From a virus, in IMG/VR virus record IMGVR_UViG_3300029432_000352: a DNA stretch of 64,000 bases. One strand, written 5' to 3'. The notes under the pieces were generated by a model. That model did not search any database, was not told the origin of the DNA, and saw only the letters and a program-made list of their open reading frames with translations. The position numbers and the translations under genes are program-made. Shown here one piece after another: positions 34,536 through 62,964 of this stretch (position 1 is its first letter; every line of letters begins with the position of its first letter).

Positions 34536-34601
34536 TTTTTTCCCTCCTTAAAAAATTAATAATATATATATATACCGTTTGTTAAACAGTAAAAAAGAAA
34601 A

Positions 34602-34748
34602 TAAAAAAAAGAGCAACTAAGCCCGGTTAGGGTTTAATTACTCTTATAAAAAAACTTTATTAACGAAAAGAAAACAGTTTTATTATAACTATTTTCGTAA
34701 ACTTCATATCTTATATATTTATTATAACACAGTATATAATGAAGTCAA
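34602..34748 (-). promoter_or_regulatory. leader module copy a: promoter TTGACTTCA-16-TGtTATAAT, hairpin, terminator-like hairpin+U-run
   Basis: plus strand: attataaca 34721-34729, agtcaa 34743-34748; hairpin 34610-34644 preceded by A-run. Confidence 0.5.
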
Positions 34749-34752
34749 TAGA

Positions 34753-35028
34753 TTAATTTAGGAATTTGCGTTCTACGAACCATTTTCCTATGTTACAACC
34801 GGATATTGCAGCATTTCTCTCAAAGAAAAGATAACTGCATTGATTGTTCACTTGAATAGTATATCTATCCCCTTGCCCTCCTGCTTTCATTGCTGCCGCA
34901 GGACGAACATCTAATATTTTGTCAATTATGAATCTATGCCCATCTTCCCAAATAATACTTTTGGGTATCATATGTCCAATATCGTCAAAATCAACAGTAA
35001 CAGGAACATATACTTTGTATTTATTCAT
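34753..35028 (-). CDS. hypothetical protein (91 aa) distal in XRE-ImmA operon
   Basis: ORF overlapping ImmA stop. Confidence 0.45.
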   Translation of the reverse strand: MNKYKVYVPVTVDFDDIGHMIPKSIIWEDGHRFIIDKILDVRPAAAMKAGGQGDRYTIQVNNQCSYLFFERNAAISGCNIGKWFVERKFLN

Positions 35029-35572
35029 AATAGCCGCCTCCTAAATCACGTTTAAGAAATGTATTCTTTGTATTTATAGGTGAAACTAATTTATATCCTT
35101 TCTGTTTTAAGATTTTAAACTTAAAATCTAATAATTCTACCGGAACATTTAATTTAGATGCCACCTGAAAGAAAGAATAATTTTCATTTAGATATTCTAA
35201 GACTACATCATCATCTAAAAGCATTTCAGCAGCAAAAATATTCGCTTCATATTCCAAAGTTGATACTTCATCAAATAGTTGAAACTCATGGAATAGATGT
35301 GAAGTAGCATTTTTATGCAAAATAGCATGTCCTAATTCGTGAGCTAATACAATATTTTGTATTAATTCCGGTAAATCAGTATTAATCGTAATGGTTTTAA
35401 TCTTACTGTGAGTCAGAAAAAAGCCTTTACAAGCATTTTCGGTTTTGCCCATACCAGAATACATCAGTATAATACTTAAATCACGGCATAGTTCTTTTAA
35501 ATTTCTTACATCATATGATTTTTTTATACTGTCTACAATATCGGAAATTGTTAAAATACTTAATTTCACCAT
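35021..35572 (-). CDS. ImmA/IrrE-family zinc metallopeptidase (183 aa)
   Basis: HEXXH VLAHELGHAILH; immediately downstream of XRE repressor. Confidence 0.7.
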   Translation of the reverse strand: MVKLSILTISDIVDSIKKSYDVRNLKELCRDLSIILMYSGMGKTENACKGFFLTHSKIKTITINTDLPELIQNIVLAHELGHAILHKNATSHLFHEFQLFDEVSTLEYEANIFAAEMLLDDDVVLEYLNENYSFFQVASKLNVPVELLDFKFKILKQKGYKLVSPINTKNTFLKRDLGGGYYE

Positions 35573-35574
35573 AG

Positions 35575-36003
35575 TTATTTATTCCCTTTTCCGTATTTTT
35601 CTTTAGCAGCATTTTTACAAGCAAAATATGCTTCTGTAACTGCCTGAAAATATGCATCCTTTGTTTCTTCAGAAATAGAACCACCGGCAAATAAAGCTCT
35701 ATTTGCATTTAATAATTCGGTAATTTCTTTTTCACCGTTTAAGCCATACTTATCAAAGGCTTGTTCTTTATATCCGGCAATATCTTGATTGTATTGTGGA
35801 TTGTCTATTTCATCTATGTCTAAATACTCGTATGAGACGTCTAACGCTTTTGCCATTTTATGAATTGCCGATGCTCTCGGAATAGAAGTGCCATTTTCAT
35901 ATTTTATAATAGAACGTTTTGAAATACCTATCATCTCACCTAATTGTTCTTGACTTAAATTTTTGCTAAGTCTTTCTTTTCTCAATTTTTCTGCAAACTT
36001 CAT
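35575..36003 (-). CDS. XRE-family (Cro/C1-type) HTH repressor, ImmR-like (142 aa)
   Basis: LSQEQLGEMIGISKRSIIKYENG HTH. Confidence 0.75.
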   Translation of the reverse strand: MKFAEKLRKERLSKNLSQEQLGEMIGISKRSIIKYENGTSIPRASAIHKMAKALDVSYEYLDIDEIDNPQYNQDIAGYKEQAFDKYGLNGEKEITELLNANRALFAGGSISEETKDAYFQAVTEAYFACKNAAKEKYGKGNK

Positions 36004-36024
36004 TGTATCTTCTCTCCTATATAT

Positions 36025-36129
36025 GAACTTTATTTCACTTTTCGCTTGACAAAGTTCACTTTGTATGATATATTCTTGGTGAACTTTATTTCACTTTATC
36101 ACATTTAACTTCACTTGTCAAGTGAAGTT
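36025..36129. promoter_or_regulatory. divergent control region: 17-bp direct repeats gaactttatttcacttt (36025-36041, 36081-36097), promoter TTGACA-17-TATATT (36046-36074, plus), perfect 23-bp palindrome AACTTCACTTGTCAAGTGAAGTT (36107-36129)
   Basis: all seen directly; palindrome contains TTGACA on minus strand, i.e. overlaps -35 of the XRE promoter. Confidence 0.55.
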
Positions 36130-36150
36130 TTGAAAAAGGAGTAATTTTTT

Positions 36151-37389
36151 ATGGACAGAGTAATCTTGCATAGCGATATGAATAGTTTTTATGCTTCAGT
36201 TGAAATTATGTTAAATCCTGAATTAAGAAACAAACCTGTTGCCGTTGGTGGTAGTACAGAAGAACGACACGGTATTATTCTGACTAAAAATCAGATTGCG
36301 AAGAAATATGGCATTAAAACAGGTATGGTTAATTGGGAAGCAAAACTACTATGCCCCGATTTAGTTATTATCACACCACATTATGAACAGTATATCAAAT
36401 ATTCAAAAATGGCACGAGAAATATACAGTAGATATACAGATAAAATTGAACCGTTTGGTATGGATGAATGTTGGCTTGATATGACTGAAAGTACAGAATT
36501 GTTCGGAAATGGCTTTGATATTGCCAATAATATTAGAAAAACAATTAAGTCAGAGTTAGGTTTAACAGTTAGTATAGGTGTATCTTTTAATAAGATATTT
36601 GCCAAATTAGGTTCAGATATGAAAAAGCCTGATGCTATAACTGTTATAAACAGAGAAAATTATAAAGATAAAGTATGGAACTTGCCTGTCGAAGATTTAT
36701 TCTATGTTGGTCCGGTAACAAAACGTAAACTTAATTCTATAGGTGTTCAAACTATCGGTAATTTAGCCAAATTTCCTGTGAATATTCTTAAAGATAAATT
36801 AGGCAAGAATGGAATTATGTTAAGTGCATATGCTAATGGAGCAGATACTTCACCTGTTATGCCACAAGATTTTGAATCACAAATAAAATCTATTGGACAT
36901 GGTTTAACATTTGTTAGAGATTTAAAAGATAATAATGATGCTTGGCAGGTAATATTTGAACTATCTCAAAATATTGGCAAAAAGCTCCGTAAACATCATT
37001 TACTGTGTGGTGGTATACAATTATCTATCCGAACATCTAATCTGTGGTATAAGCAATGGCAGAGCCTTATAGATGGTAACAGTAGAAGTGTACGAACAAT
37101 AGCCCATACCACTCAAAACTTGTTAGAAACACATTTTAATTGGAATGATACTATTCGGTCATTAACGGTACGAGCAATATATCTTGTTCCTGATAATATT
37201 CCCTATCAAAGAAGTTTATTTGTTGATGATGAAAAAAATGAGAATACAGAAAAATTAGAAAGGACCGTTGAAGTTTTAAGAAATAGATTCGGTCCGAATA
37301 CTATAACATATGCTTCTTTGCTTAATAATGATAAGATACCAAATATTCGCTTGGAAGAAATGATTATGCCGAAACTATTGTCAAGATAA
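36151..37389 (+). CDS. Y-family DNA polymerase (DinB/UmuC-like, 412 aa)
   Basis: N-terminal ILHSDMNSFYASVE...KPVAVGG motif. Confidence 0.8.
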   Translation: MDRVILHSDMNSFYASVEIMLNPELRNKPVAVGGSTEERHGIILTKNQIAKKYGIKTGMVNWEAKLLCPDLVIITPHYEQYIKYSKMAREIYSRYTDKIEPFGMDECWLDMTESTELFGNGFDIANNIRKTIKSELGLTVSIGVSFNKIFAKLGSDMKKPDAITVINRENYKDKVWNLPVEDLFYVGPVTKRKLNSIGVQTIGNLAKFPVNILKDKLGKNGIMLSAYANGADTSPVMPQDFESQIKSIGHGLTFVRDLKDNNDAWQVIFELSQNIGKKLRKHHLLCGGIQLSIRTSNLWYKQWQSLIDGNSRSVRTIAHTTQNLLETHFNWNDTIRSLTVRAIYLVPDNIPYQRSLFVDDEKNENTEKLERTVEVLRNRFGPNTITYASLLNNDKIPNIRLEEMIMPKLLSR

Positions 37390-37424
37390 AAGGGTGCAAA
37401 CAATATGTTTACACCCTTTTTTGC

Positions 37425-38765: not shown

Positions 38766-38831
38766 TGACTTTCTCCCTTCTAAATTTATTATGTTATTAT
38801 ATATTATACAATGTTTTACAAATTTTTTCAA

Positions 38832-38869: not shown

Positions 38870-38877
38870 TAGGTAGA

Positions 38878-41182: not shown

Positions 41183-41331
41183 TTTCTTATTCCTCCTTTG
41201 AATTGGTTGTTGCTTTTTAAATTAACTTTCACTTTAAATTTTAATTTGAACGTAAAAAGTCTTTTTTGATTCCTCCTTATGAAATTTAATAGATATATAT
41301 AATCCGTTTTTTAAAACGGTAAAAAAGAAAA

Positions 41332-41468
41332 TAAAAAAAGAGCAATCAAGCCCTTATTAGGGTTAGATTACTCTTTAAATTTAACTATATTAGCATAAAA
41401 GAATACATTGTATTCTTAAACCTTCATACTTCTTAATATAATTATATCATTTACAATTGTGAAGTCAA
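41332..41468 (-). promoter_or_regulatory. leader module copy b (TTGACTTCA-16-TGaTATAAT; terminator-like hairpin 41339-41374)
   Basis: plus: attatatca 41441-41449, agtcaa 41463-41468. Confidence 0.5.
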
Positions 41469-42496: not shown

Positions 42497-42898
42497 TTAA
42501 TTTTTACTCTTTTCATATTTTTTTACAATCTCATAAATAGCTTTTATATCTTCAGTAGAAAAACTACCGATTTTATATTGAATAATAGTTGAAATTTTAG
42601 GCTTTAGCTGTAATCTTTTAATTTCTTCTTCTGCCGAATTTTTAGAACTATAAAGCAAAGTTGAGATGCCATAATTTTCTTTAGGTCTAAATACGTTTGA
42701 ATCATCATCATAACAATATTCACTGCTATAACTTTCCAAGCCTTTAACAGTAACATATTTCCGACCAACTTTAGTAATTATAACTTCTTTCATTCGAGGT
42801 GGGGTATTATATCCGATATTAGCATATACTACATATGCTTTTTCACCCACGTTGAAATCTTTGATTGATTGATTATTCATTTTCGTTTCCTCCTTCAT
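42497..42898 (-). CDS. hypothetical protein (133 aa)
   Basis: ORF. Confidence 0.5.
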   Translation of the reverse strand: MKEETKMNNQSIKDFNVGEKAYVVYANIGYNTPPRMKEVIITKVGRKYVTVKGLESYSSEYCYDDDSNVFRPKENYGISTLLYSSKNSAEEEIKRLQLKPKISTIIQYKIGSFSTEDIKAIYEIVKKYEKSKN

Positions 42899-43124: not shown

Positions 43125-43187
43125 AAAATTCCTCCTTAAATTATTCATTTGATATATATATAAACCACTAAATAGTAGTAAAAAAGA

Positions 43188-43333
43188 ATAAAAAAAGAAC
43201 AATTATATTTTCCGGTTAGGAATTTATAATTGTTCTATGTTAAACTATTAAATACAAAAAGAGAATATTATATCTCTCTTGAGCACTTCATATTTATACT
43301 ATAAGTATAACATAGCATATAATTGAAGTCAAT
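43188..43333 (-). promoter_or_regulatory. leader module copy c (TTGACTTCA-17-TGtTATACT; 12-bp perfect terminator-like stem 43197-43237)
   Basis: plus: agtata 43305-43310, agtcaa 43328-43333. Confidence 0.5.
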
Positions 43334-43338
43334 ATACA

Positions 43339-43370
43339 AAAAACAGACTCTCAATAAATGAGAGTCTGTA
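43339..43370 (-). terminator. rho-independent terminator (11-bp stem acagactctca + U6) ending methyltransferase transcript
   Basis: seen directly. Confidence 0.65.
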
Positions 43371-44567: not shown

Positions 44568-44630
44568 TAAAATTGCTCCTTTCGTAAAAAAATAATAGCT
44601 ATCTACCCGAAGGTAAATAGCTATTTGACA

Positions 44631-45428: not shown

Positions 45429-45701
45429 TTACGCTACCTCTCCATACCAATAAGCAGCCTGATCAAGAACTGCCTTTAAAAAGTCACGAGCTTGAGCTTG
45501 AAGCTCATCAATTCGATCCCAACCGGTTGGCTCTTCGCCATTCATGATCGGGATTAAATGAAAACCAAGCAAATCAACGGTTAGATGATAAACGCTCTCA
45601 GCGTTGAGAGGCATTTCATCAAATACCGTTTCAACGTTGTACGAATTGAACTCAATTGGTTTATGATAACGTGTCATTTTAATTTCCTCCTTAAAAAACA
45701 A
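45429..45701 (-). CDS. hypothetical protein (90 aa)
   Basis: ORF. Confidence 0.5.
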   Translation of the reverse strand: MFFKEEIKMTRYHKPIEFNSYNVETVFDEMPLNAESVYHLTVDLLGFHLIPIMNGEEPTGWDRIDELQAQARDFLKAVLDQAAYWYGEVA

Positions 45702-45764
45702 AAAAATTCCGGATACTTTTTTGTATATAAACTGTCAATAATGGCAGATAATAAAATTAAATCT

Positions 45765-45906
45765 ATAAAAAAAGAACAAACTAAATCCCTTTAGGGTTTG
45801 TTAGTCTGTTCTTGAACTTTAATTAAAATCGAAACATGGTATAACCATGTTTCAATAACCTTCATATCTTATATTTTTATTATAACATACATAGAAATGA
45901 AGTCAA
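45765..45906 (-). promoter_or_regulatory. leader module copy d (TTGACTTCA-16-TGtTATAAT; hairpin 45773-45812 + U-run)
   Basis: plus: attataaca 45869-45877, agtcaa 45901-45906. Confidence 0.5.
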
Positions 45907-46376
45907 TAACTTTTTATACAATATTTTTTTAAAAGTTTTATATAATTTCTTTACATAGCATCCCATTGCTTATATTCCTCTAAGCGATGAATAAATCCAC
46001 TGAATTGAGGAATGGTAAAATCTAATTCTCGATATTTTACCGTATAAATACGTAAAAATAATACGATAAGTTTAAAACTTACCGTATTATTTGAAATCAA
46101 AACTTGTTATTGTGGTTTACCTATTTTTGACTATTTTGCATAATTGACAAAATCATAACTATAATATATAATAAAATTATCAATATAGATAACTTTAGCA
46201 CACGGCAAATACACTACAATGTTAATTGTACGTAAATTTGTCCTCTGTGCTTTTTTTATTTCTTCACAAAATAATTATATTTTATTATTTTTAATCAATA
46301 CTTCCTATATATATAATGCCTATTTTTTATGGTTTTCTACATTTTCATAAGTAAATAGGCACTTATATATTTGCTA

Positions 46377-48696: not shown

Positions 48697-48761
48697 ACTG
48701 AATTCCTCCTTAAAAATAATTATGTTTAATATATAAACAGCTTAATAGCTGTAACAAAAAT

Positions 48762-48904
48762 AATAAAAAAAGAGTGATTAAGCCCTATTTGGGTTTAATC
48801 ACTCATAAAAAACTATATTAATTAAAAAAGAAAACAATTTCAATTATTTTCTTAAAAACTTCATACTTATATTTTAATTATAACATGATATAAAATGAAG
48901 TCAA
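48762..48904 (-). promoter_or_regulatory. leader module copy e (TTGACTTCA-16-TGtTATAAT; hairpin 48771-48804 + U-run); ~100 bp identical to copy f
   Basis: plus: attataaca 48877-48885, agtcaa 48899-48904. Confidence 0.55.
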
Positions 48905-51097: not shown

Positions 51098-51162
51098 AAT
51101 TCTTTTTCCTCCGTTTCATTTAACTTAATATATATAAACAGCTTAATAGCTGTAACAAAAAT

Positions 51163-51298
51163 AATAAAAAAGAGTGATTAAGCCCTATTTGGGTTTAATC
51201 ACTCATAAAAAACTATATTAATTAAAAAGGAAACATTAAAATGTTCCATAAACTTCATATTTATAATATAATTATATCATATCGTAAATTGAAGTCAA
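51163..51298 (-). promoter_or_regulatory. leader module copy f (TTGACTTCA-16-TGaTATAAT; hairpin 51171-51204 + U-run)
   Basis: plus: attatatca 51271-51279, agtcaa 51293-51298. Confidence 0.55.
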
Positions 51299-53401: not shown

Positions 53402-53467
53402 ACAAATTCCTCCTTTGGAAATTACATTGTTTAATTTATGTAAACAGTTCATACTGTAAAAAAGAAA

Positions 53468-53604
53468 ATAAAAAAAGAGTAATCAAACCCAAATAGGATT
53501 CGATTACTCTAAAAAAACTATATAAATATTAAAGAAAACATTAAGATGTTTCCATAAACTTCATATTTATAATATAATTATATCATGTCATAAATTGAAG
53601 TCAA
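53468..53604 (-). promoter_or_regulatory. leader module copy g (TTGACTTCA-16-TGaTATAAT; hairpin 53476-53510 + U-run)
   Basis: plus: attatatca 53577-53585, agtcaa 53599-53604. Confidence 0.5.
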
Positions 53605-54521: not shown

Positions 54522-55457
54522 TTAAACTCTCACGCCAACACATTCATAAAATATATCAGCATCAAAATATGGTAACGACTTAATAAATTCTTTATCATCA
54601 TCGCTAACATCTTCATCCCACCATTTTTGCTTGTCAGCTTCAACTATTATTGTTTTGATATATCCGCCAATAGTTTCACATTCAGGGTGTTCCATAATTT
54701 CTTCCTCACTCATTTTGTTTTTGGAAATAAAATCCGAATATTCATATGATTGAGGGCAATCCAATAAAATCTCGTTAAATCTAACTATTGACTTATCATT
54801 AAAATCAAATTCTGTTTCATGATTAAACATTCTCACTTTAGGTGAATTTGTATTACAAATTCCACTGTTATAATTTCCACTGTTATAATCTCCAGAATTA
54901 TAATTTCCGCTATTATAATCTCCACTATTATGACAACCAGAATTATAATCTCCATTGTTACAATTTCCGGTGTTATAATCTCCTGTGTTATAATTTCCGC
55001 TGTTATGATAACCGGAATTATAATCTCCACTGTTACAATTTCCGGTGTTATAATCTCCGGTGTTATCATTTCCGGTGTTATCATTTCCGGTGTTATAATT
55101 TCCGCTGTTATGATAACCGGAATTATAAGTTCCACTGTTACACTTTCCGGAATTTCCTTTTCCAGTATTGCACATATCCAACACTTCGCTCCACTTCAAT
55201 TCTTTTAAGATAACTATCTTATTTGTGCAACACTTAGAGTTGGTATCATCAAAATGAATTTCTCCTATTGCCTCAATTTCAGCCACCTTATTGTTTGGAT
55301 CAAATGAATAATAATTAAAGCAATCTACTAATTTTTCACAAAAATGAAAACCCACCTTACAACACTTTGGACTTTCTGCTATCTCATAAGTCTTTCCAAT
55401 TTCATATTGATAACCTCTGCATGTCCAATCTGAATTAAATACTTTATAACCTTTCAT
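54522..55457 (-). CDS. pentapeptide-like repeat protein: ~27 tandem 5-aa units (N-[ST]-G-[DN]-[YCD]) after a Cys-containing N-terminal domain (311 aa from ATG 55457)
   Basis: GGAGGAATTTAAA RBS; repeats GNYNSGDYNSGYHNSGNYNTGNDNTG... seen directly. Confidence 0.5.
   Translation of the reverse strand: MKGYKVFNSDWTCRGYQYEIGKTYEIAESPKCCKVGFHFCEKLVDCFNYYSFDPNNKVAEIEAIGEIHFDDTNSKCCTNKIVILKELKWSEVLDMCNTGKGNSGKCNSGTYNSGYHNSGNYNTGNDNTGNDNTGDYNTGNCNSGDYNSGYHNSGNYNTGDYNTGNCNNGDYNSGCHNSGDYNSGNYNSGDYNSGNYNSGICNTNSPKVRMFNHETEFDFNDKSIVRFNEILLDCPQSYEYSDFISKNKMSEEEIMEHPECETIGGYIKTIIVEADKQKWWDEDVSDDDKEFIKSLPYFDADIFYECVGVRV
54843..55170. repeat. tandem 15-bp coding repeats (pentapeptide units) producing spurious ORFs in other frames
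   Basis: seen directly; ORFs 54833..55135(-), 54842..55213(+), 54930..55208(+) are artifacts. Confidence 0.7.
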
Positions 55458-55520
55458 TTTAAATTCCTCCTTAAAATTTTTAATAATATATATAATCCGA
55501 AAAAGCGGTAAAATAGAAAT

Positions 55521-55660
55521 AAAAAAAAGAGCAATTAAGCCCAATTAAGGTTTAATTACTCTTATAAAAAAACTATATTAATATCAATGAAAATAGTTAA
55601 TCTATTTTCTGAAACTTCATATTTATAATATAATTATAACATATCATAAATTAAAGTCAA
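55521..55660 (-). promoter_or_regulatory. leader module copy h (TTGACTTTA-16-TGtTATAAT; hairpin 55528-55562 + U-run)
   Basis: plus: attataaca 55633-55641, agtcaa 55655-55660. Confidence 0.5.
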
Positions 55661-55849: not shown

Positions 55850-56155
55850 TCAAACTTTCTTATTATATCCTTTCCAAAAGTTCATTCGTAGTTCCATTGA
55901 AACTGGTTTATTTATAAGTTCGTCCATTTCATCAACGTCCAACATATCCATTAGATTACCAATTTCCTGATTTAATTCATCGGATATATAAGGCATAGTT
56001 CGTTTAATCATTGTTGTGATACTTCTCATAGGAAACATATCACATTGTCCTTGAAATGGATCGTTAAATCCTTTTAGCTGAGTTAATTGGGCGTATACAC
56101 TACCCATCGCCTCTAAATTTTCTACTGTATACATTATTATTTCACACCTTTCCAT
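55850..56155 (-). CDS. hypothetical protein (101 aa)
   Basis: ORF. Confidence 0.45.
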   Translation of the reverse strand: MERCEIIMYTVENLEAMGSVYAQLTQLKGFNDPFQGQCDMFPMRSITTMIKRTMPYISDELNQEIGNLMDMLDVDEMDELINKPVSMELRMNFWKGYNKKV

Positions 56156-57158
56156 TTTCTTTTAAGAATACATTTGTAGTTACAACATTATCGTTTACAT
56201 CATATCCTTTTATGAATATTGGTGCAAGCCATTTTAAAATTAATTTTCTATGACTTGAACCCCTCTCTCCTTTCCAGTAATGATGCCAATGTCCACGCCG
56301 TGTATGTGGGCGTTTCGGAGAACCATGTGCTTCCACTCCCGAATTATTATAAATAATATGAGATTTAACCTTCTTTTGTTTTATTTGGCGAATAATATTT
56401 CCGGTTTGAGTGCCACAATTCCATTTTTGAATTTCTCTATATTTATCTTTTATGTATTCTTTTTTTTGGGGCTTACGAGTTATGTATTTTTGTCGTTCAT
56501 CTTCAGTAATTTCGCTGTTCTGTGCACAGATATATAACACAAGTTGCAATTTTGATGTTATTAAGTTTGTTACAAAATCAATATAATCTTTATCGACAAA
56601 ATTCTTTGATGAATTCTTTTCTACTTCTTGTAACATTCGGTCAATTCCATCTTTGATTGTACCATTTTCTATAAGATGTAAAGAAATAGGCATAACTGAA
56701 TAGTCATTATTTATAAACAAAAATCGCAATTCCAATTCTCCGTTGTTAGTATCTGATTCAAAGTAGACGAAGAATCCATTGTACTCATCATCGTTTACTG
56801 CTATGTAAATACAGGGATATGGAAGATTACTTAAAACTTCGATTGGTATAATTAAATCTTCACTTCCTTGTTCAGTAAGAACATCTTCCATATCTTTATC
56901 AAAGCTGAAGATTTGTTTATACAATCTCCATGTAGCAGTTGCAACAATTATATTGGCTTCTGATATTATGCTCAAATTAATATTGTCATTTCCGCCACTT
57001 GCAATAGCAATCCCTACCCCTATCGGTATATAGCAACGAGCATCCCAATTCACTTCTTTGCCGTTCATTTTTCTCATATCTTCTACTTGTTTCCAAGCAT
57101 TCGGATATTTCTTATTGACTTTTTGAGTTAAAATTAATGGTGCAATTTTTTCTTCCAT
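56142..57158 (-). CDS. hypothetical protein with basic His/Arg-rich C-terminal segment (338 aa)
   Basis: ORF. Confidence 0.5.
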   Translation of the reverse strand: MEEKIAPLILTQKVNKKYPNAWKQVEDMRKMNGKEVNWDARCYIPIGVGIAIASGGNDNINLSIISEANIIVATATWRLYKQIFSFDKDMEDVLTEQGSEDLIIPIEVLSNLPYPCIYIAVNDDEYNGFFVYFESDTNNGELELRFLFINNDYSVMPISLHLIENGTIKDGIDRMLQEVEKNSSKNFVDKDYIDFVTNLITSKLQLVLYICAQNSEITEDERQKYITRKPQKKEYIKDKYREIQKWNCGTQTGNIIRQIKQKKVKSHIIYNNSGVEAHGSPKRPHTRRGHWHHYWKGERGSSHRKLILKWLAPIFIKGYDVNDNVVTTNVFLKENGKV

Positions 57159-58527: not shown

Positions 58528-58550
58528 AGTACCTCTTTGAAATTTCCGTT

Positions 58551-58823: not shown

Positions 58824-58859
58824 AATATTCCTCGCTTTCCACAGTAAATCATCGTTTCA

Positions 58860-59144: not shown

Positions 59145-59230
59145 AATCTTCTCCTTATCTAAAAAAACTCTTGTTTCATTAAAATTTAATAGTTGTATCT
59201 TCTGAAACTACCATAAAGATATGTGGTAGT

Positions 59231-59482
59231 TCACTCAATTATTTCTAATACATAATAACCAAGACATTTTTGCATTCTGGTATTAATATATTCCTTATTC
59301 TTTTTCTCATATTCAGAAAAAGATATACAAGGAAGCAATAATCGTTTTTTGCCTCTTGCATTTATATGAGAATAATAGATACCTTCACGCAATACATTTT
59401 CAGGATTTTTTAGTCCTAATAGTTTTATATACTGAATAGCGGCTAATTTTTTGTTTTTCTCCGCTAAATCAAATGCTAACAT
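59231..59482 (-). CDS. hypothetical protein (83 aa)
   Basis: ORF. Confidence 0.5.
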   Translation of the reverse strand: MLAFDLAEKNKKLAAIQYIKLLGLKNPENVLREGIYYSHINARGKKRLLLPCISFSEYEKKNKEYINTRMQKCLGYYVLEIIE

Positions 59483-59514
59483 ATTTTTCCTCCTTAATCA
59501 AATTATCGTTTCAT

Positions 59515-59712
59515 TTACTTTAATACAATTAACTCTGCTTCTTCGACATATTTCTTTGCAGCATTATATCCATTTCTATTAAGTTCACCTTCAATACTAA
59601 ACCAAAGTGAATCTAAAAAATTTGGAATAGATACAAAATCTTTGTTTGGATATTTTTCTCTATATCGTTTATACGCCGTTTTATATAATTCATCTACTAA
59701 ATCACGCTTCAT
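59515..59712 (-). CDS. hypothetical protein (65 aa)
   Basis: ORF. Confidence 0.45.
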   Translation of the reverse strand: MKRDLVDELYKTAYKRYREKYPNKDFVSIPNFLDSLWFSIEGELNRNGYNAAKKYVEEAELIVLK

Positions 59713-59735
59713 AATAATTTATCTCGCCTTTCAAA

Positions 59736-59975
59736 TCATATATTTTTAATTTCAATAATTGCATCGTGTTCTTTCGCATATTTGTAAAAATCCACCGTGT
59801 CATCGCAAGTATAGTTGTCCAAAAATTCGTCAAATGTGGTGTAATATTCCGACTGCCTTTCTTCCCAATAATTTTTTGCAAAATCTCTTGTTACTTTAAC
59901 ATAAGAAATATTATTATCGGCAATATTTTTGCGACTTATTGTATCTTTGTATACTGCAATCCATATAGTTTTCAT
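59736..59975 (-). CDS. hypothetical protein (79 aa)
   Basis: ORF. Confidence 0.5.
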   Translation of the reverse strand: MKTIWIAVYKDTISRKNIADNNISYVKVTRDFAKNYWEERQSEYYTTFDEFLDNYTCDDTVDFYKYAKEHDAIIEIKNI

Positions 59976-59989
59976 TAAATCACTCCAAT

Positions 59990-60607
59990 CTACATATACA
60001 CTTTTTTCAATTCTCTATCTTCCAATCCAATAGTACCATCAAGTAATGAAACCAACGCATTATACTGTTCATTTTCTTCAGGATAATTTGCTTCTATGTA
60101 ACTAAGGATATTCCAAATTAATCTTTGACTTGCACCGTCAATGTTGAAATTTTCTTGAATATACTCAAAAAATTGCTGTTTATTCATTGTGTCTGTTTCC
60201 TCTTTGTCTAAATTATTGTACAAATTTTGTAACTTTTCAGCAATTTTTTTTAATGCGTTCTCTTTATATTCTTCATTATGTACAAGGGCAACCACATCAG
60301 GCACTCCCGAAAACCCATTTCTCTTTGCCTCCAACATAAGATGTGTTTCTTCTTCTACATCAAAAACCTCATAGAGTGTCCATATCTCATTAGCCAAAAT
60401 TTTAGTTAATTCTTTTTTTGTCGTTGGATTATCTATTATAATTTCATTACGCCAATCCTCACAACAAGGATTATCACCTTGCATATACAACTCAATCGTT
60501 TCATCTGTTACTTCTGATATTCCAAATGAAAAATCCGTTCCGTCCGATAATTCGTCAAGATATTGTTCTAATTTGTCTGTGTTCATAATATTAATCCTCC
60601 TTCTCAA
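59990..60607 (-). CDS. hypothetical acidic protein (205 aa)
   Basis: ORF. Confidence 0.5.
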   Translation of the reverse strand: MRRRINIMNTDKLEQYLDELSDGTDFSFGISEVTDETIELYMQGDNPCCEDWRNEIIIDNPTTKKELTKILANEIWTLYEVFDVEEETHLMLEAKRNGFSGVPDVVALVHNEEYKENALKKIAEKLQNLYNNLDKEETDTMNKQQFFEYIQENFNIDGASQRLIWNILSYIEANYPEENEQYNALVSLLDGTIGLEDRELKKVYM

Positions 60608-61049
60608 TCGTCACTTTATATCCCATCTGTTTCCAAAACTTTTCCGCTGCTTGTTTACATTCGGATAAAAGATAACTATAGGCTTCTCCATAATATTCCT
60701 CCATATATGATTCTACGCACATTATTGAAGGATATTTTAAAGGCTCAGTAAAATCCCAACTACTACCTATATATGCCTCATTAACAATTCTGAAATCATC
60801 TTCGTTTGTCAACTTATACCATATATAGGTATGGTCCTCGTTTAGTTCTTCATCAATTAAAGGCATTACATTGTCTAATTTTATGATACGCAATTTTTCT
60901 GCCTTTTCGATTTTTGGTTTCATCTCGTTCTTTACCTCGTAATCTCTACACTCTGCTTCTGTATTAAATTCTGTTCCGTCATCTGCTATATATACCGGAA
61001 CTTCCTGTATTATTGCTTTTGTTTCTACTTTCATATATAACCACTCCAA
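60591..61049 (-). CDS. hypothetical protein (152 aa)
   Basis: ORF. Confidence 0.5.
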   Translation of the reverse strand: MEWLYMKVETKAIIQEVPVYIADDGTEFNTEAECRDYEVKNEMKPKIEKAEKLRIIKLDNVMPLIDEELNEDHTYIWYKLTNEDDFRIVNEAYIGSSWDFTEPLKYPSIMCVESYMEEYYGEAYSYLLSECKQAAEKFWKQMGYKVTIEKED

Positions 61050-61058
61050 TCTAAAATT

Positions 61059-61631
61059 TCAATTCAAAACTCTAACCTTAGCAATATATCTTATCCTTAT
61101 TTTATTTTGTAAAACATCGGTAACAAATATATTTGCAACTTCTTTTAAATCGGCTTCTGTACCATTATTGTCAATAACTATATCATAATCATAATTAAAA
61201 ACTCTGTCATCAGCCAAATTTGACGTAATATGTGGTATATTATCACGTTTAACAAGGATTGTTATTGCATTAAATTCTTGTACTGCTCTTTTTATTTCCT
61301 CCGGTTCTCGAATATGTAAAAAGAGTATATCTTCATCAGTCGAACTTTTAAAGGCATCAACTTTTCCTCTCATAGCTGCAAATGGTAAATCATTATATTC
61401 AGAAACAATCAATTTTAAATCACATAAAAATTTTCTGTCTCTTTCTGTTTTTGAACCTGTCCAACCTATGTCTTTTGCAATTTTTTTTATTTCATCTACT
61501 GATGAATAATTAATGACTTGTTTATTTGTTAAACGGCAATAAAATTCACTAACAAATTGTACGAATGTATCTTTGCCTACTCCACCACTACCGTTAATTA
61601 CAAATATTTTCTTACTATCAATCGTTGTCAT
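61059..61631 (-). CDS. P-loop nucleotide kinase-like protein (dNMP kinase-type, 190 aa)
   Basis: N-terminal Walker A FVINGSGGVGKDT; size typical of phage/plasmid nucleotide kinases. Confidence 0.45.
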   Translation of the reverse strand: MTTIDSKKIFVINGSGGVGKDTFVQFVSEFYCRLTNKQVINYSSVDEIKKIAKDIGWTGSKTERDRKFLCDLKLIVSEYNDLPFAAMRGKVDAFKSSTDEDILFLHIREPEEIKRAVQEFNAITILVKRDNIPHITSNLADDRVFNYDYDIVIDNNGTEADLKEVANIFVTDVLQNKIRIRYIAKVRVLN

Positions 61632-61655
61632 AATATATTCCTCCCTTTTGCTCCA

Positions 61656-61922
61656 TTAATTTGACTTGAAACGTGATTTTTCATCTTCGGTAATAATATC
61701 AGTAATGAATACTTTGATTATTTCAGCATCCTTATCATTAACTTGTGATAAAATGTGTCTTAAAGTGCTTCCAACACCTTGAATAATATCTTTGTGTTCA
61801 CCTTTTACTTCAACAACAACTTTATCTGAATCAGGATCAGATGTAATCAAGCAAAATGAACCATCTTTAAAATTTTTTGCTCTTGCTAAACGATTTACTA
61901 TTTCTGCAAATTCATTAGTCAT
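61656..61922 (-). CDS. hypothetical protein (88 aa)
   Basis: ORF. Confidence 0.5.
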   Translation of the reverse strand: MTNEFAEIVNRLARAKNFKDGSFCLITSDPDSDKVVVEVKGEHKDIIQGVGSTLRHILSQVNDKDAEIIKVFITDIITEDEKSRFKSN

Positions 61923-61938
61923 TATAATTCAACTCCTT

Positions 61939-62271
61939 TTATTTTACGATTGCTATTACATTTTCTTTATTATGACCATTGATTTTACACTTGGTTTCAT
62001 TAATGTTTTTTACGAAAACCAAAGATGTTTTATCAATGCAGTGTGACCATTTCGGTGTACCTTGATTAAATACACGTTTTAATAACAGAAATCTTGCCTT
62101 ACCGGGTTTTCTACTTGTTGCTTTGTTTATGAGATGTATAATTGTATTATGCAGTATTTCTTCTCGTTTGCGACAATACCTTTCCGGTATATTATTTTGT
62201 TCTTTTTCTGCTATTTGTAAAATCTTTTTATAATCAAGATAAGTAATATATTTCATCTTTAAATCCTCCAT
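61939..62271 (-). CDS. hypothetical basic protein (110 aa)
   Basis: ORF. Confidence 0.5.
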   Translation of the reverse strand: MEDLKMKYITYLDYKKILQIAEKEQNNIPERYCRKREEILHNTIIHLINKATSRKPGKARFLLLKRVFNQGTPKWSHCIDKTSLVFVKNINETKCKINGHNKENVIAIVK

Positions 62272-62296
62272 TAAAAATTTATATATTCATATTAAA

Positions 62297-62524
62297 TTAC
62301 TCTATTTCAACTTTTAAATAAATGGATTTACCATTTGTGCATTTAATTCTTATAGCATTTTTACTATGTTTTATTCTTAGCACACTTTTGACACAAGGTT
62401 CATAATGCTCTAATCCGTCTCCATAAGCGAATAAAGCATATAAATTATCCAGAACATCATTTTTGTCAAAATCAAAATCTCCTTTTTTAAAAGATTTATA
62501 TTGCTTATTTGTTAAAATCACCAT
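62297..62524 (-). CDS. hypothetical protein (75 aa)
   Basis: ORF. Confidence 0.5.
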   Translation of the reverse strand: MVILTNKQYKSFKKGDFDFDKNDVLDNLYALFAYGDGLEHYEPCVKSVLRIKHSKNAIRIKCTNGKSIYLKVEIE

Positions 62525-62550
62525 AATCTTTCTCCTCCTTCCTTGTTTAT

Positions 62551-62748
62551 TTAATCGTAAACAAATACTGCTCTTCCACCGAGTTTTTTTATTTCATTTG
62601 TAATATGTTCTATTTGATCAAGCATAACATCCATAGAACAAATACAAGCTCCTTCAGAAATATTACTATATATACTCCTACAATCGCTTATAGTAATTCT
62701 ACAAATATTATCATCTACCTTAATTATTCGGCATTTTATTGTTTCCAT
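62551..62748 (-). CDS. hypothetical Cys-rich protein (65 aa from ATG 62748)
   Basis: GGAGGAATTC RBS before ATG 62748; listed N-terminal extension is translated module sequence. Confidence 0.45.
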   Translation of the reverse strand: METIKCRIIKVDDNICRITISDCRSIYSNISEGACICSMDVMLDQIEHITNEIKKLGGRAVFVYD

Positions 62749-62814
62749 TAGAATTCCTCCTTTTAAAATTGCATTGTTTAATTTATATAAACAGTTCATA
62801 CTGTAAAATAGAAA

Positions 62815-62953
62815 ATAAAAAAAGAGTGATTAATCTATAAATAGGTTAAATCACTCTTTAAAAACTAAATTATTTATGTAGAAAACAGCTAATGCTATTT
62901 TCGTAAACTTCATATCTATAATTATATTATAGCATATCATAGAACAAAGTCAA
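62815..62953 (-). promoter_or_regulatory. leader module copy i (TTGACTTTG-16-TGcTATAAT; hairpin 62823-62857 + U-run)
   Basis: plus: attatagca 62916-62924, agtcaa 62948-62953. Confidence 0.5.
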
Positions 62954-62964
62954 CGCATATTTTT

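What the first reader, a model, noticed from the sequence alone, without database searches (positions are those of the whole stretch)
34536..62964. Nine-copy promoter / hairpin / terminator-like leader module punctuating a minus-strand array of small genes
A ~200-bp intergenic unit recurs nine times, ending near 34748, 41468, 43333, 45906, 48904, 51298, 53604, 55660 and 62953. Read on the coding (minus) strand, each copy has a near-consensus promoter TTGACTTCA-N16/17-TG.TATAAT. About 35 nt further on is a hairpin whose sequence differs between copies but whose stem is kept by compensatory changes (e.g. GGAAACAT/ATGTTCC, GAAACATGGT/ACCATGTTTC, GAAAATAG/CTATTTTC). Then comes a 10-15-bp GC-containing hairpin followed by a U-run, which looks like an intrinsic terminator. 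A third short hairpin (ACAGCTTAATAGCTGT-type) follows, then the RBS and start of the next gene. A strong promoter followed directly by a terminator-like structure in front of every cassette is not ordinary operon architecture. It suggests either a regulated leader (conditional read-through/antitermination; the structured hairpin could be an RNA or protein recognition site) or a family of ~100-nt small RNAs that shares its promoter with the downstream gene. Covariation in hairpin A argues that the RNA structure is under selection.
Basis: seen in the sequence. Interest (0 to 1): 0.85.

Follow-up and report, generated by a model that had tools for sequence, protein, structure and literature searches.

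The report
Repeated promoter-leader-terminator operon control module
A ~200-base control unit (strong promoter, short structured leader RNA, strong terminator, small hairpin, ribosome site) sits in front of nine (at least eleven in the whole element) small-gene operons of the early/"establishment" region of a very common gut conjugative element. It is a new, undescribed type of the regulatory sequences that let mobile DNA switch on its anti-defence genes.

Summary
Nine copies, all on the minus strand, match a strict pattern that shuffled sequence never matches. About 34 more copies occur in 18 metagenome/IMG-VR loci. Each copy has TTGACT-16/17-TGnTATAAT, an invariant TATGAAG, variable hairpin A, an invariant AGTT, a 13-16-bp terminator with a U-run, hairpin C, AAGGAGG and a start codon.

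All three helices covary: 92% of cells are paired and 25 of 27 pairs show double changes. G·U outnumbers A·C about 5:1, so the structures are selected on the RNA-sense strand.

The setting is the early/establishment region of an ICE-like element. It carries SSB, orphan methylases, an AcrVA2-like protein, ImpB and an XRE+ImmA pair next to a VirB4 transfer module.

No Rfam family matches. The modules do not fit pLS20 EGeRS1, p576 EGeRS2, conAn, the zipper attenuator or Frpo.

Copies with only ~30 nt between terminator and RBS have no room for a second promoter, so the genes must be expressed by terminator read-through. My best reading is a repressible strong promoter plus an insulating/attenuating leader that is passed by factor- or RNA-mediated antitermination. 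That mechanism is inferred, not shown. I rate it a new variant of a known kind, of moderate-to-high interest.

The parts
62757..62953 (-). Module 1
   Evidence: Coordinates: -35 62953-62948; -10 62931-62926; TATGAAG 62914-62908; hairpin A 62902-62881; terminator 62859-62821 with U-run to 62817; hairpin C about 62803-62790; RBS 62762-62757; ATG 62748. Supported by pattern and CM hit of 109 bits.
55467..55660 (-). Module 2, upstream of the DUF7666/pentapeptide gene
   Evidence: Coordinates: -35 55660; -10 55638-55633; TATGAAG 55621-55615; hairpin A 55609-55589; terminator 55563-55527 with U-run to 55521; hairpin C 55508-55497; RBS 55472-55467; ATG 55457. Supported.
53410..53604 (-). Module 3
   Evidence: Coordinates: -35 53604; -10 53582-53577; TATGAAG 53565-53559; hairpin A 53553-53534; terminator 53510-53476 (15 bp; also found by the simple scan) with U-run to 53470; hairpin C 53457-53444; RBS 53415-53410; ATG about 53401. 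Supported.
51108..51298 (-). Module 4
   Evidence: Coordinates: -35 51298; -10 51276-51271; TATGAAG 51259-51253; hairpin A 51247-51230; terminator 51204-51172 with U-run to 51166; hairpin C 51153-51138; RBS 51114-51108; ATG 51097. Best CM score, 122 bits.
48706..48904 (-). Module 5
   Evidence: Coordinates: -35 48904; -10 48882-48877; TATGAAG 48865-48859; hairpin A 48853-48828; terminator 48804-48772 with U-run to 48765; hairpin C 48752-48737; RBS 48711-48706; ATG 48696. Supported.
45687..45906 (-). Module 6, divergent terminator type (GAACAGAC...)
   Evidence: Coordinates: -35 45906; -10 45884-45879; TATGAAG 45866-45860; hairpin A 45856-45828 (perfect 13 bp, -15 kcal/mol); terminator 45813-45772 with U-run to 45767; hairpin C 45753-45726; RBS 45692-45687; ATG 45677. 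Supported.
43132..43332 (-). Module 7 (-10 is TATACT, spacer 17), upstream of the cassette that holds the ProQ_C-like gene
   Evidence: Coordinates: -35 43332; -10 43309-43304; TATGAAG 43292-43286; hairpin A 43285-43253; terminator 43236-43196 with U-run to 43190; hairpin C 43179-43164; RBS 43137-43132; ATG 43124. Supported.
41273..41468 (-). Module 8 (RBS present, but no start codon within 16 nt; the first gene appears lost)
   Evidence: Coordinates: -35 41468; -10 41446-41441; TATGAAG 41428-41422; hairpin A 41421-41395; terminator 41376-41337 with U-run to 41333; hairpin C 41319-41304; RBS 41278-41273. Supported. Relative L161 has an ATG after the same module.
34544..34748 (-). Module 9, the last in the window
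   Evidence: Coordinates: -35 34748; -10 34726-34721; TATGAAG 34708-34702; hairpin A 34696-34670; terminator 34645-34609 with U-run to 34603; hairpin C 34591-34573; RBS 34549-34544; ATG 34535. Supported.
35021..36003 (-). Candidate regulator pair: XRE-type HTH repressor (35575-36003) and ImmA/IrrE M78 peptidase (35021-35572)
   Evidence: Pfam HTH_3 at 1.1e-16 and Peptidase_M78 at 1.2e-16. The assignment as regulator of the modules is an inference.
36004..36150 (.). Divergent XRE / ImpB control region. It holds the perfect palindrome AACTTCACTTG-A-CAAGTGAAGTT over a -35 TTGACA, and two copies of GTGAAATAAAGTTCA(C/T).
   Evidence: Sequence read. It shares the ACTTCA/TGAAGT hexamers and AAAGTT with the modules. 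Promoters here were found.
44594..44625 (-). Internal 14-bp terminator, 15 nt upstream of the RBS of the N6_N4 methylase gene, with no promoter after it
   Evidence: It shows that read-through of terminators is also needed inside a cassette.
43343..43369 (-). Conventional terminator that ends the upstream cassette just before the promoter of module 7
   Evidence: Only some cassettes have their own terminator of this kind. The others must end at the next module's terminator.

Best explanation
Each copy is the control unit of one operon in the early ('establishment'/leading-type) gene region of an integrative conjugative element of a low-GC gut Firmicute.

Step 1 (sequence shown, activity inferred). 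A near-consensus sigma-A promoter with an extended -10 fires strongly when it is not repressed. The promoter lies inside an imperfect dyad, ACTTCAT...ATGAAGT. This dyad resembles the perfect palindrome over the promoter of the element's own XRE/ImmA pair. The element's repressor therefore probably silences all modules in the resident state. On entry into a naive cell, or on induction, they would all fire together.

Step 2 (structure shown, function inferred). The first ~100-110 nt of RNA form hairpin A and then a long-stem (13-16 bp) intrinsic terminator with a U-run. This terminator stops RNA polymerase arriving from the upstream cassette or from outside, so it insulates the cassette. By default it also stops the module's own transcripts, so it attenuates.

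Step 3 (inferred). The genes are expressed by read-through of this terminator. The leader has no alternative antiterminator fold. Read-through is therefore most likely conferred on polymerases that started at a module promoter, through a signal in the leader: the invariant 5' UAUGAAG, hairpin A as a shape, and the invariant AGUU. That signal could act with an unidentified element or host factor, or as a cis-acting RNA. This is the logic known from Tn916 canT and pLS20 conAn.

Step 4 (inferred). In the read-through RNA, hairpin C sits upstream of a consensus RBS. It probably marks or stabilises the mature 5' end of the mRNA.

Step 5 (shown). The conserved modules also act as homologous joints at which cassettes are exchanged between elements.
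For: Copies and distribution:
- Nine of nine copies are on the coding strand, with 0 expected by chance. Thirty-four further copies lie in 18 loci, always co-oriented with the downstream ORF.
- The promoter is TTGACT-16-TGnTATAAT in 27 of 29 distinct versions.

RNA structure:
- All 37 distinct leaders fold as hairpin A plus terminator.
- 92% of cells are paired against 74% in shuffles. 25 of 27 pairs have double changes. 0 of 500 shuffles reach this. Slid controls give 36-56%.
- There are 24, 25 and 23 distinct hairpin A, terminator and hairpin C sequences.
- G·U versus A·C counts are 25/5, 26/19 (14 of the 19 at one conserved column) and 14/3. The RNA-sense strand is the one selected.
- Terminator hairpins are -12 to -24 kcal/mol with 12-22 bp and U4-8. 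B. subtilis terminators average 9±2 bp, and the 15-bp stem of pLS20 TerR gives very tight, antitermination-resistant termination (PMC10325885).

Read-through is required:
- Variants have only ~30 nt between the U-run and the RBS (L205_10960, L124_1393, L205_5776, L180_3198).
- Hairpin C covaries.
- An internal terminator sits directly before the methylase RBS.
- No conserved antiterminator fold exists.

Context:
- VirB4/TraC-like, PrgI-like, large serine recombinase.
- SSB at the head of the array and Topo III upstream of it.
- A DUF4942 methylase found on 3949 conjugative plasmids.
- An AcrVA2-like protein, SocA and NrdD.
- ImpB and XRE+M78.

Repressor link: the palindrome AACTTCAC...GTGAAGTT lies at the XRE promoter.

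Shuffling: the L156 chimera has its crossover in the conserved linker, and cassette order differs in L211 and L213.

Precedents: repeated regulatory sequences stand before establishment operons in pLS20 and p576 (PMC8708921). Terminator-plus-antiterminator logic is known in Gram-positive conjugative elements (PMC11658703, PMC8191782).
Against: - There are no transcript data, so promoter activity, termination and read-through are all predictions.
- No antiterminator protein was found. There is no pXO2-34/ConAn1, NusG-like or Q-like hit among the roughly 90 proteins scanned. Not every small ORF was scanned.
- Long-stem terminators are the class shown to resist conAn antitermination. This argues against easy read-through.
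- Hairpin A has no conserved sequence or loop, which is unusual for a factor-binding site.
- The simplest insulation design would place the terminator upstream of the promoter, as the same element does in its transfer region.
- The repressor link rests on shared hexamers at a very different spacing (about 15 versus about 37 bp centre to centre).
- Two variants lack the left half-site yet keep TATGAAG.
- The relaxase and oriT were not located, so 'leading region' in the strict sense is not shown. IMG/VR labels some of these contigs as viral.
Confidence: 0.5

Rival explanations
1. Leaky attenuator and insulator without any dedicated antitermination. The strong promoter is partly throttled by a constitutive terminator. 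A fixed small fraction of polymerases reads through and gives moderate, well-insulated expression of each cassette. Timing is controlled only by the repressor.
For: - No alternative fold exists and no antiterminator gene was found.
- The promoters are near-consensus, so even 5-10% read-through could be enough.
- The RBSs are consensus AAGGAGG.
- Many cassettes lack their own terminator and must use the next module's.
Against: - It does not explain the invariant UAUGAAG and AGUU motifs, or the strict conservation of a hairpin at one position despite free sequence drift.
- Terminators with 13-22-bp stems and U6-8 are expected to be very efficient.
- Wasting more than 90% of transcripts at eleven or more promoters is costly.
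Confidence: 0.2
2. The ~100-110-nt terminated RNAs are the main product. They would be a family of small RNAs with a common 5' seed (AUAUGAAGUUU) and a variable hairpin, acting in trans on host or element RNAs or as decoys against a host defence. Downstream gene expression would be secondary.
For: - The layout is the classical sRNA one: conserved single-stranded 5' end, stem-loop, A/U-rich linker, then a strong terminator with a U-tail.
- A ProQ-C-like protein is encoded in one cassette.
- The strong promoters would make these RNAs very abundant.
Against: - Every copy is followed at a fixed short distance by a consensus RBS and an ORF in the same orientation. No orphan copies were found.
- Hairpin C, beyond the terminator, is under RNA-level selection.
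- Variants leave no room for another promoter, so the same promoter must serve the genes.
- The only complement to the seed is the module's own -35 flank.
Confidence: 0.12
3. The hairpins work in transferred single-stranded DNA. The module would be a single-strand origin or ssDNA promoter (Frpo/ssi- or sso-like) that primes complementary-strand synthesis or early transcription in the recipient.
For: - The context is conjugative-element early genes including SSB.
- Four consecutive hairpins, including one spanning the promoter, all favour the same strand.
- In pLS20 the transferred strand is the coding-sense strand (PMC8708921).
Against: - The promoter is canonical in duplex form. In the hairpin the -10 lies in the loop and no downstream template exists, so it cannot mimic Frpo.
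- As DNA the promoter hairpin is only -1.6 to -5.7 kcal/mol, with z about -2, and hairpins A and C are weaker still.
- The U/T-run follows the big hairpin only on the coding strand, and the unit ends in an RBS. Both are RNA-level features.
- No CS-6 (TAGCGT) motif is present.
- The transferred strand is unknown.
Confidence: 0.05
4. The array is the early region of a prophage or phage-plasmid, not a conjugative leading region. The modules would be early promoters with N/Q-style antitermination sites.
For: - IMG/VR lists several carrier contigs as viral.
- NrdD with an intein, HNH, SSB, methylases and PHROG hits are phage-like.
- Promoter, short terminated RNA, terminator, then genes is the lambda pR'-6S-tR' layout (my own knowledge).
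Against: - There is no capsid, portal, terminase or tail gene in the 64-kb window or in about 30 kb of flanks.
- The neighbouring 25 kb encode VirB4/TraC-like, PrgI-like, DUF5697/DUF6100 and SLH proteins, ending at a serine recombinase next to chromosomal genes.
- DpnD/PcfM, Topo III and the DUF4942 methylase are conjugative-plasmid genes.
- This rival changes the label of the element, not the mechanism of the module.
Confidence: 0.08

Closest known systems
EGeRS2 of Bacillus pumilus plasmid p576 (establishment gene regulatory sequence type 2; Val-Calvo et al. 2021, PMC8708921)
   Same: - A conserved sequence repeated in front of several establishment operons of a Gram-positive conjugative element.
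- It contains a strong sigma-A promoter.
- The proposed logic is the same: an element-encoded repressor silences the promoters in the donor, and a transient burst follows in the recipient.
- Cassette content varies between related elements.
   Different: - p576 has 4 copies. Its operators are the direct dual heptamers TTATCCCnnTTATCCC, bound by an RHH protein, and no leader terminator is described.
- Here there are at least 11 copies, no TTATCCC, a dyad ACTTCAT...ATGAAGT, an XRE-type candidate repressor, and a structured leader with a strong terminator between promoter and RBS.
EGeRS1 of pLS20-family plasmids (PMC8708921)
   Same: - Repeated immediately upstream of the RBS of each establishment operon.
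- Multi-hairpin.
- Blocks transcription coming from upstream in an orientation-specific way.
- How the genes get expressed is unknown, which is the same puzzle as here.
   Different: - EGeRS1 is 420-750 bp, GC-rich (51%) and has no detectable sigma-A promoter.
- The present module is about 200 bp, 18-24% GC, and starts with a consensus promoter. There is no sequence similarity.
Terminator-plus-processive-antiterminator control in Gram-positive conjugative elements: Tn916 canT/T1 (PMC11658703) and pLS20 conAn1/conAn2 with TerR (PMC8191782, PMC10325885)
   Same: - The order is promoter, RNA element, intrinsic terminator(s), genes.
- Terminators act as insulators against spurious or outside transcription.
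- The module terminator has the same build as the long-stem TerR. TerR is GAGUGC-UAAU-CCCUU (15 bp); the module is GAGUGAUUAAACCC (13-16 bp).
   Different: - Those systems occur once per element, at the head of the long conjugation operon.
- Their RNA elements are 300-450 nt and complex.
- ConAn1 (Pfam pXO2-34) was not found here.
- The present leader is about 60 nt upstream of the terminator, has a single sequence-variable hairpin, is repeated at every small operon, and belongs to the establishment genes rather than the transfer genes.
Zipper-type attenuator cATT of pLS20 (PMC13401043)
   Same: A leader with a central stem-loop followed by an intrinsic terminator just upstream of the first gene of an operon on a Gram-positive conjugative element.
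   Different: In the zipper, the segment 5' of the central hairpin is complementary to the terminator and extends the stem into an antiterminator. Here the terminator 5' arm has no conserved partner. The 5' UAUGAAG can pair only weakly with the U-rich tail of hairpin A.
Frpo / ssi single-stranded DNA promoters of F-like and IncI plasmids (PMC11541004, PMC9849209)
   Same: Repeated, structured, orientation-specific elements in front of early (ssb, anti-defence) genes of a conjugative element.
   Different: Frpo becomes a promoter only by intrastrand folding of the transferred strand. The present promoter is canonical in duplex DNA, and its dyad places the -10 in the loop.
Lambda pR'-6S RNA-tR' with Q antitermination (my own knowledge, not tested)
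   Same: A strong constitutive-type promoter makes a short RNA that ends at a strong terminator directly upstream of the genes. Expression requires modification of the polymerase near the promoter.
   Different: There is one copy per phage, and it needs a Q protein and a Q-binding element. No Q homologue was seen, and the host clade and element type differ.

Membership tests
Sigma-A (sigma-70 type) promoter | -35 TTGACA-like and -10 TATAAT-like hexamers 16-18 bp apart, optionally with an extended -10 TG | tested here: met
   TTGACT, spacer 16 (27 of 29) or 17, TGnTATAAT.
Sigma-A (sigma-70 type) promoter | Transcription start about 7 nt downstream in vivo or in vitro | not testable with these tools
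   No transcript data.
Intrinsic (Rho-independent) terminator | Stable G+C-containing stem-loop immediately followed by a U-run on the transcribed strand only | tested here: met
   12-22 bp, -12 to -24 kcal/mol, U4-8. The stem covaries. The opposite strand has no T-run.
Intrinsic (Rho-independent) terminator | RNA 3' ends at the U-run | not testable with these tools
   Needs Term-seq or in vitro transcription.
Any described RNA family (Rfam 15, including riboswitches, EAR, known leaders and sRNAs) | Match to a curated covariance model | tested here: not met
   The gathering-threshold scan of the whole window finds only drum RNA, elsewhere. The E<=1 scan of 41-56 kb, covering seven modules, finds nothing.
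EGeRS2 (p576) | Reg576 operators TTATCCCnnTTATCCC flanking the promoter | tested here: not met
   No TTATCCC on either strand of any of the nine modules.
EGeRS2 (p576) | Repeated strong promoter in front of establishment operons, one of them driving the repressor gene | tested here: inconclusive
   Repeated strong promoters: yes. The candidate repressor (XRE, 35575-36003) has its own, different promoter that shares only hexamers with the modules.
EGeRS1 (pLS20) | 400-750 bp, GC-rich, multi-hairpin, no sigma-A promoter | tested here: not met
   191-220 bp, 18-24% GC, consensus promoter.
conAn processive antitermination | ConAn1 protein (Pfam pXO2-34, PF17362) encoded next to a ~300-nt conAn2 RNA | tested here: not met
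   No PF17362 hit among about 80 window proteins scanned against Pfam. Some ORFs under 80 aa were not scanned.
Zipper-type / alternative-fold attenuator | Conserved antiterminator pairing that sequesters the terminator 5' arm | tested here: not met
   In truncated-leader folds the 5' arm is unpaired (0 of 13-24 nt) in 14 of 37 leaders. In the rest it makes only weak, non-homologous A-U pairs.
Frpo/ssi ssDNA promoter | -35 and -10 boxes created only by intrastrand pairing of the transferred strand | tested here: not met
   The boxes are canonical in duplex form. The fold puts the -10 in the apical loop. DNA fold energies are -1.6 to -5.7 kcal/mol.
sso (ssoA-type single-strand origin) | RSB and CS-6 (TAGCGT) elements in a long ssDNA hairpin | tested here: not met
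   No TAGCGT in any module. RSB was not tested.
Leading region of a conjugative element (strict sense) | Lies next to oriT and enters the recipient first | not tested
   Relaxase and oriT were not found in the window or flanks. The gene content (SSB, orphan methylases, Acr-like, ImpB) is typical.
Leader-peptide attenuator | Conserved short ORF whose translation controls the terminator | tested here: not met
   The AUGAAG-initiated ORF is 3-24 codons long, and neither its sequence nor its stop position is conserved.

The most novel reading that the evidence does not exclude
The leader may be a self-licensing 'transcript-origin sensor'. RNA that starts at the module's own promoter carries a free 5' UAUGAAG. 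Together with hairpin A and AGUU, this would make the polymerase terminator-resistant, acting as a very small cis-acting antiterminator RNA.

RNA arriving from upstream also contains ACUUCAU from the -35 flank. That sequence captures AUGAAGU in a promoter-spanning hairpin, predicted in 7 of 9 copies at -5 to -16 kcal/mol and with G·U-tolerant variants. This would inactivate the signal, so outside transcripts stop at the long-stem terminator.

The result would be a roughly 60-nt RNA switch that reads where transcription began, repeated at every anti-defence operon of a very common gut ICE.
Probability: 0.1. Interest if true: 0.85.

Novelty: new variant of a known kind. Interest (0 to 1): 0.6.

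Why it matters
How conjugative elements of Gram-positive bacteria time the expression of their establishment and anti-defence genes is largely open. Only two regulatory sequence types are described, both in the Bacillus pLS20 family, and the mechanism of one of them is unknown.

This module is a third, compact and easily testable type. It comes from an element that appears in well over a thousand human-gut assemblies.

- It marks operon boundaries precisely. It can therefore serve as a flag for mining unknown anti-defence genes, since most of the ~60 small genes behind it have no family.
- It gives a natural set of at least 24 covarying variants for dissecting a promoter/terminator leader.
- It shows regulatory modules doubling as recombination joints that shuffle gene cassettes.
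- If a dedicated antitermination signal is confirmed, it would be the smallest known of its kind.

Tried and rejected
1. My first collection scan used a mis-spaced pattern. Its 30 loci (L001-L030) are chance hits and were ignored.
2. Megablast of 10 kb against phages and plasmids, and blastn of one module against plasmids, gave nothing useful.
3. MAFFT plus RNAalifold on unanchored leaders predicted no structure, because hairpin A was misaligned. I solved this with a hand-given structure and a CM re-alignment. The caveat is that this alignment is fitted to the model.
4. Second promoter between terminator and RBS. TTTAC(A/C)-16/18-TATAT(A/T) scores 9 of 12 in most hairpin-C copies. I rejected it as the general driver for three reasons: such matches are at chance frequency; hairpin C covaries in the RNA sense, which a spacer would not; and variants without hairpin C have no room for a promoter.
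5. Antisense promoter for countertranscript attenuation (pIP501/pT181 style). No conserved -35/-10 exists on the plus strand, and the invariant AGTT does not fall on key -10 positions.
6. Leader peptide: rejected.
7. Alternative antiterminator or zipper fold: rejected.
8. Frpo-like ssDNA promoter: rejected.
9. Pfam, NCBIfam and PHROGs on about 90 proteins. Most small array proteins have no family, and no antiterminator, relaxase or coupling protein was recognised.
10. Neither the host organism nor oriT could be identified.

Full report

Yes. A strict pattern taken from the copies (TTGACTT, 10-15 nt, TGNTATANT, 8-16 nt, TATGAAG) matches nine times. The direct-repeat finder recovers the same units in pieces.

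Read on the minus strand, each copy has these parts in order:
- TTGACT, a 16-nt spacer (17 in one copy), then TGnTATAAT.
- 11-12 nt further on, an invariant TATGAAG.
- 3-6 nt later, hairpin A.
- A U/A-rich linker with an invariant AGTT.
- A 13-16-bp hairpin followed by T6-8.
- About 12 nt later, a 4-6-bp hairpin C followed by TTATATA.
- 15-25 nt later, AAGGAGG and a start codon.

The predicted terminated RNA is 99-112 nt long.

**2. Relatives elsewhere**

The same pattern scanned against IMG/VR and metagenome contigs, followed by nhmmer and a covariance model, found about 34 further copies in 18 loci. Eleven more appeared in three 20-kb loci fetched through a window protein.

Many of these loci are near-identical sister elements. 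Others (L205, L120/L180, L199, L124, L147) carry clearly different versions. In every case the module is co-oriented with a downstream ORF. The window itself holds exactly nine copies. In sister contigs the array continues upstream of the window end with at least two more.

**3. Structure**

ViennaRNA folds all 37 distinct leaders into the same two hairpins. MAFFT plus RNAalifold failed because hairpin A varies in length. I therefore gave the three helices by hand on an 11-sequence alignment, built model R1 and re-aligned all hits to it.

On 38 distinct rows:
- 92% of cells are standard pairs, against 74% after shuffling partners and 36-56% after sliding partners.
- 25 of 27 pairs have changes on both sides.
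- 0 of 500 shuffles reach the observed values.

The alignment is fitted to the model, which inflates these numbers. The raw sequences nevertheless show 24 different hairpin A, 25 terminator and 23 hairpin C sequences that all pair.

Non-Watson-Crick cells are mostly G·U: 25 versus 5 A·C in hairpin A, 26 versus 19 in the terminator (14 of the 19 at one conserved A·C column), and 14 versus 3 in hairpin C. The helices are therefore selected on the coding-sense strand. With the one-sided U-run and the RBS, this points to RNA.

Three features are invariant and unpaired: TATGAAG near the RNA 5' end, AGTT 3-9 nt before the terminator, and TTATATA after hairpin C.

**4. What the leader is not**

- No Rfam family matches, even at E<=1.
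- When each leader is folded only up to the terminator loop, the 5' arm has no conserved partner. It is not a riboswitch-, T-box-, pT181- or zipper-type alternative-fold attenuator.
- The ORF that starts at the invariant AUGAAG is 3-24 codons long and has no conserved sequence or stop position.
- No conserved antisense promoter exists.
- The promoter-like match between terminator and RBS (TTTACA-16-TATATT type, 9 of 12) is at chance frequency in this AT-rich DNA. It would place hairpin C in a spacer, where RNA-sense covariation makes no sense.
- Four variant types lack hairpin C and have only about 30 nt between the U-run and the RBS.

The downstream genes must therefore be transcribed through the terminator. 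An unrelated 14-bp terminator sits 15 nt before the RBS of the N6_N4 methylase gene, again with no promoter after it. Terminator read-through thus looks like a general requirement in this region.

**5. Context**

*Transfer and replication region.* The first 26 kb of the window encode a VirB4/TraC-like ATPase, a PrgI-like protein, DUF5697/DUF6100 and SLH-domain proteins, an SNF2 helicase, a NERD protein, a sigma-like protein and a drum RNA. A Rep-like HTH_36/DnaD_N gene lies at 27.7 kb, next to a GT-rich repeat where the GC skew flips. Beyond the window start, sister contigs show a large serine recombinase and then chromosomal genes, on contigs of up to 252 kb. This is an integrative conjugative element.

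*The minus-strand array (34.5 to beyond 64 kb).* It holds about 60 mostly family-less small genes, together with:
- a DUF4942 orphan methylase, which gives tblastn hits on 4290 plasmids, 3949 of them conjugative;
- an N6_N4 methylase, DUF3841, a DUF7666/pentapeptide protein and a NYN protein;
- a ProQ-C-like protein and DpnD/PcfM;
- an AcrVA2-like protein, by precomputed Pfam in L212;
- ImpB/UmuC and an XRE-HTH plus ImmA/IrrE peptidase pair.

Upstream in sister contigs lie SocA, DUF5052, HD and NrdD. At the head of the array there is an SSB with an acidic ...EIPFA tail directly behind a module, preceded by Topo III.

This is the gene content of an establishment or leading-type anti-defence region (PMC11541004, PMC8708921). 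However, the relaxase and oriT were not found, so 'leading' in the strict sense is inferred.

*Prevalence.* The element is very common. One array protein occurs in 1729 collection blocks and the VirB4 in 128.

**6. The promoter dyad and a candidate repressor**

The bases just after the -35 (ACTTCAT) are the inverted repeat of ATGAAGT. The whole 46-nt promoter region is an imperfect dyad with the -10 at its centre.

As DNA the hairpin is weak: -1.6 to -5.7 kcal/mol, with z about -2 against dinucleotide shuffles on either strand. As RNA it is -5 to -16 kcal/mol. Variants such as ACTTTA and ACTTTG keep pairing through G·U.

The intergenic region between the XRE gene and impB carries a perfect palindrome, AACTTCACTTG-A-CAAGTGAAGTT, over its -35. 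It also has two GTGAAATAAAGTTCA(C/T) sites. The module shares the hexamers ACTTCA and TGAAGT, and the AAAGTT of some linkers.

I infer that the XRE/ImmA pair (ImmR/ImmA-like, as in ICEBs1; my own knowledge) or a similar protein represses all modules. The weaknesses are that the half-site spacing differs (about 15 versus about 37 bp) and that two variants lack the left half-site yet keep TATGAAG. TATGAAG therefore probably has an RNA-level role as well.

**7. Most likely mechanism**

I read the module as a repressible strong promoter followed by an insulating and attenuating leader.

The terminator has a long stem: 13-16 bp in the window and 12-22 bp overall, against an average of 9±2 bp in B. 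subtilis. It even resembles pLS20 TerR (GAGUGC-UAAU-CCCUU), whose long stem makes it exceptionally tight (PMC10325885). Only some cassettes have a terminator of their own before the next promoter. The module terminator therefore also ends the upstream operon.

The genes need read-through and no alternative fold exists. I therefore favour licensing of module-initiated polymerases by a leader signal (UAUGAAG, hairpin A as a shape, AGUU), with or without a protein. This is the logic shown for Tn916 canT and pLS20 conAn.

This step is inferred. No antiterminator gene was recognised, and long stems are the feature that resists conAn.

A plain leaky attenuator is the main rival (0.2). An sRNA family as the primary product (0.12) and an ssDNA function (0.05) are less likely, for the reasons given under the rival explanations.

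In the element's transfer region, a different three-copy repeat follows the ordinary order of terminator then promoter. This makes the inverted order in the array look deliberate.

**8. Modules as recombination joints**

L156 combines the promoter and hairpin A of the 34748-type module with the terminator, hairpin C and gene of the 55660 module. The crossover lies in the conserved TTAATATAGTT linker.

L211 lacks the 7-kb cassette between modules 62953 and 55660 and joins module 62953 to a different cassette. L213 has yet another order.

The mosaic arrangement of establishment operons noted for the pLS20 family (PMC8708921) has a visible mechanism here.

**9. Comparison and verdict**

The closest described things are the establishment gene regulatory sequences EGeRS2 (strong promoter plus repressor sites) and EGeRS1 (structured, blocks read-through, mechanism unknown) of the pLS20 family. 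Next come the terminator/antiterminator systems of Tn916 and pLS20.

The module fails the defining features of each of these, and of Frpo/ssi, sso and every Rfam family (see the membership tests). It works like a hybrid of EGeRS2 and a canT-type lock. It is small, AT-rich and repeated at every operon.

I class it as a new variant of a known kind. The role as an operon control module is well supported. The antitermination step and the repressor assignment are hypotheses that simple experiments or metatranscriptome mapping could settle.

Noticed in passing
window 11785-11856, 16276-16347, 46299-46356 (minus strand): A second, unrelated three-copy ~70-nt repeat: ACCGCCATTTGCTTATGAAAAAGTAGAAAAACG...GGACTATATTTATAGAAGG. 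Two copies follow a terminator and precede the RBS of transfer-region genes. It may be a promoter for the element's own sigma-like factor. The third copy lies in a 470-nt ORF-free gap next to a perfect plus-strand promoter (46144-46172).
   Followed up: partly
window 16412-16519 (-), with 16530-17114 (-): A drum RNA (RF02958, 47.4 bits against a gathering score of 43) lies directly downstream of a 194-aa gene with a weak Sigma70_r2 hit, and upstream of the three-copy repeat. Drum RNAs have no known function and are reported to associate with particular neighbouring proteins (PMC5737381).
   Followed up: partly
window 26554-26667, with 27672-28718 (+): A GTGTAC/GTGTGC microsatellite-like array (periods 8, 10 and 14) sits next to a Rep-like HTH_36/DnaD_N gene, where the GC skew changes sign. 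It is probably a replication origin inside an element that also has an integrase.
   Followed up: no
window 36004-36150: The divergent XRE / ImpB control region holds a perfect 23-bp palindrome over the -35 and two GTGAAATAAAGTTCA(C/T) operators. It looks like an SOS-like or ImmR-type switch that also controls an error-prone polymerase.
   Followed up: partly
window 54819-55178: A 15-bp periodic repeat of at least 16 units inside the DUF7666 gene. This is the pentapeptide-repeat domain, a possible DNA mimic, of the first gene behind module 55660.
   Followed up: no
window 56142-57158 (-); L212 16473-17489: The 338-aa protein is called AcrVA2-like (PF26125) in the precomputed annotation of the sister contig, and it matches phrog_6160. 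My Pfam copy gave no hit. It is a possible anti-CRISPR in the array.
   Followed up: partly
window 42497-42898 (-): A Phage_ProQ_C_like domain protein (2.5e-11) in the cassette behind module 43332. It is a possible RNA-binding partner for the abundant terminated leader RNAs.
   Followed up: no
window 28909-30021 (+); L213 1667-2800: IS605-family TnpB (OrfB_IS605 + Cas12f1-like TNB) copies are inserted at different places in sister elements. In L213 one is inside the NrdD region.
   Followed up: no
L211/L212 1-3100: The anaerobic ribonucleotide reductase NrdD at the head of the array carries an intein with a LAGLIDADG endonuclease in L212 and L213. In L211 it is split by an HNH gene.
   Followed up: no
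L205 11024-11600 (-); L120 1140-1787 (-): The gene behind the most upstream module that I inspected is an SSB with an acidic tail ending in EIPFA. It is followed by a conventional terminator and then the next module.
   Followed up: partly
window 41273-41182: Module 41468 has a perfect RBS but no start codon within 16 nt, and the next ORF starts about 90 nt later. The relative L161 has an intact gene here, so the first gene seems to have been lost in the window element.
   Followed up: no
window 32133-32231 (+): Three tandem 33-bp (11-aa) repeats inside the SPFH/Band-7 gene (31569-32453).
   Followed up: no
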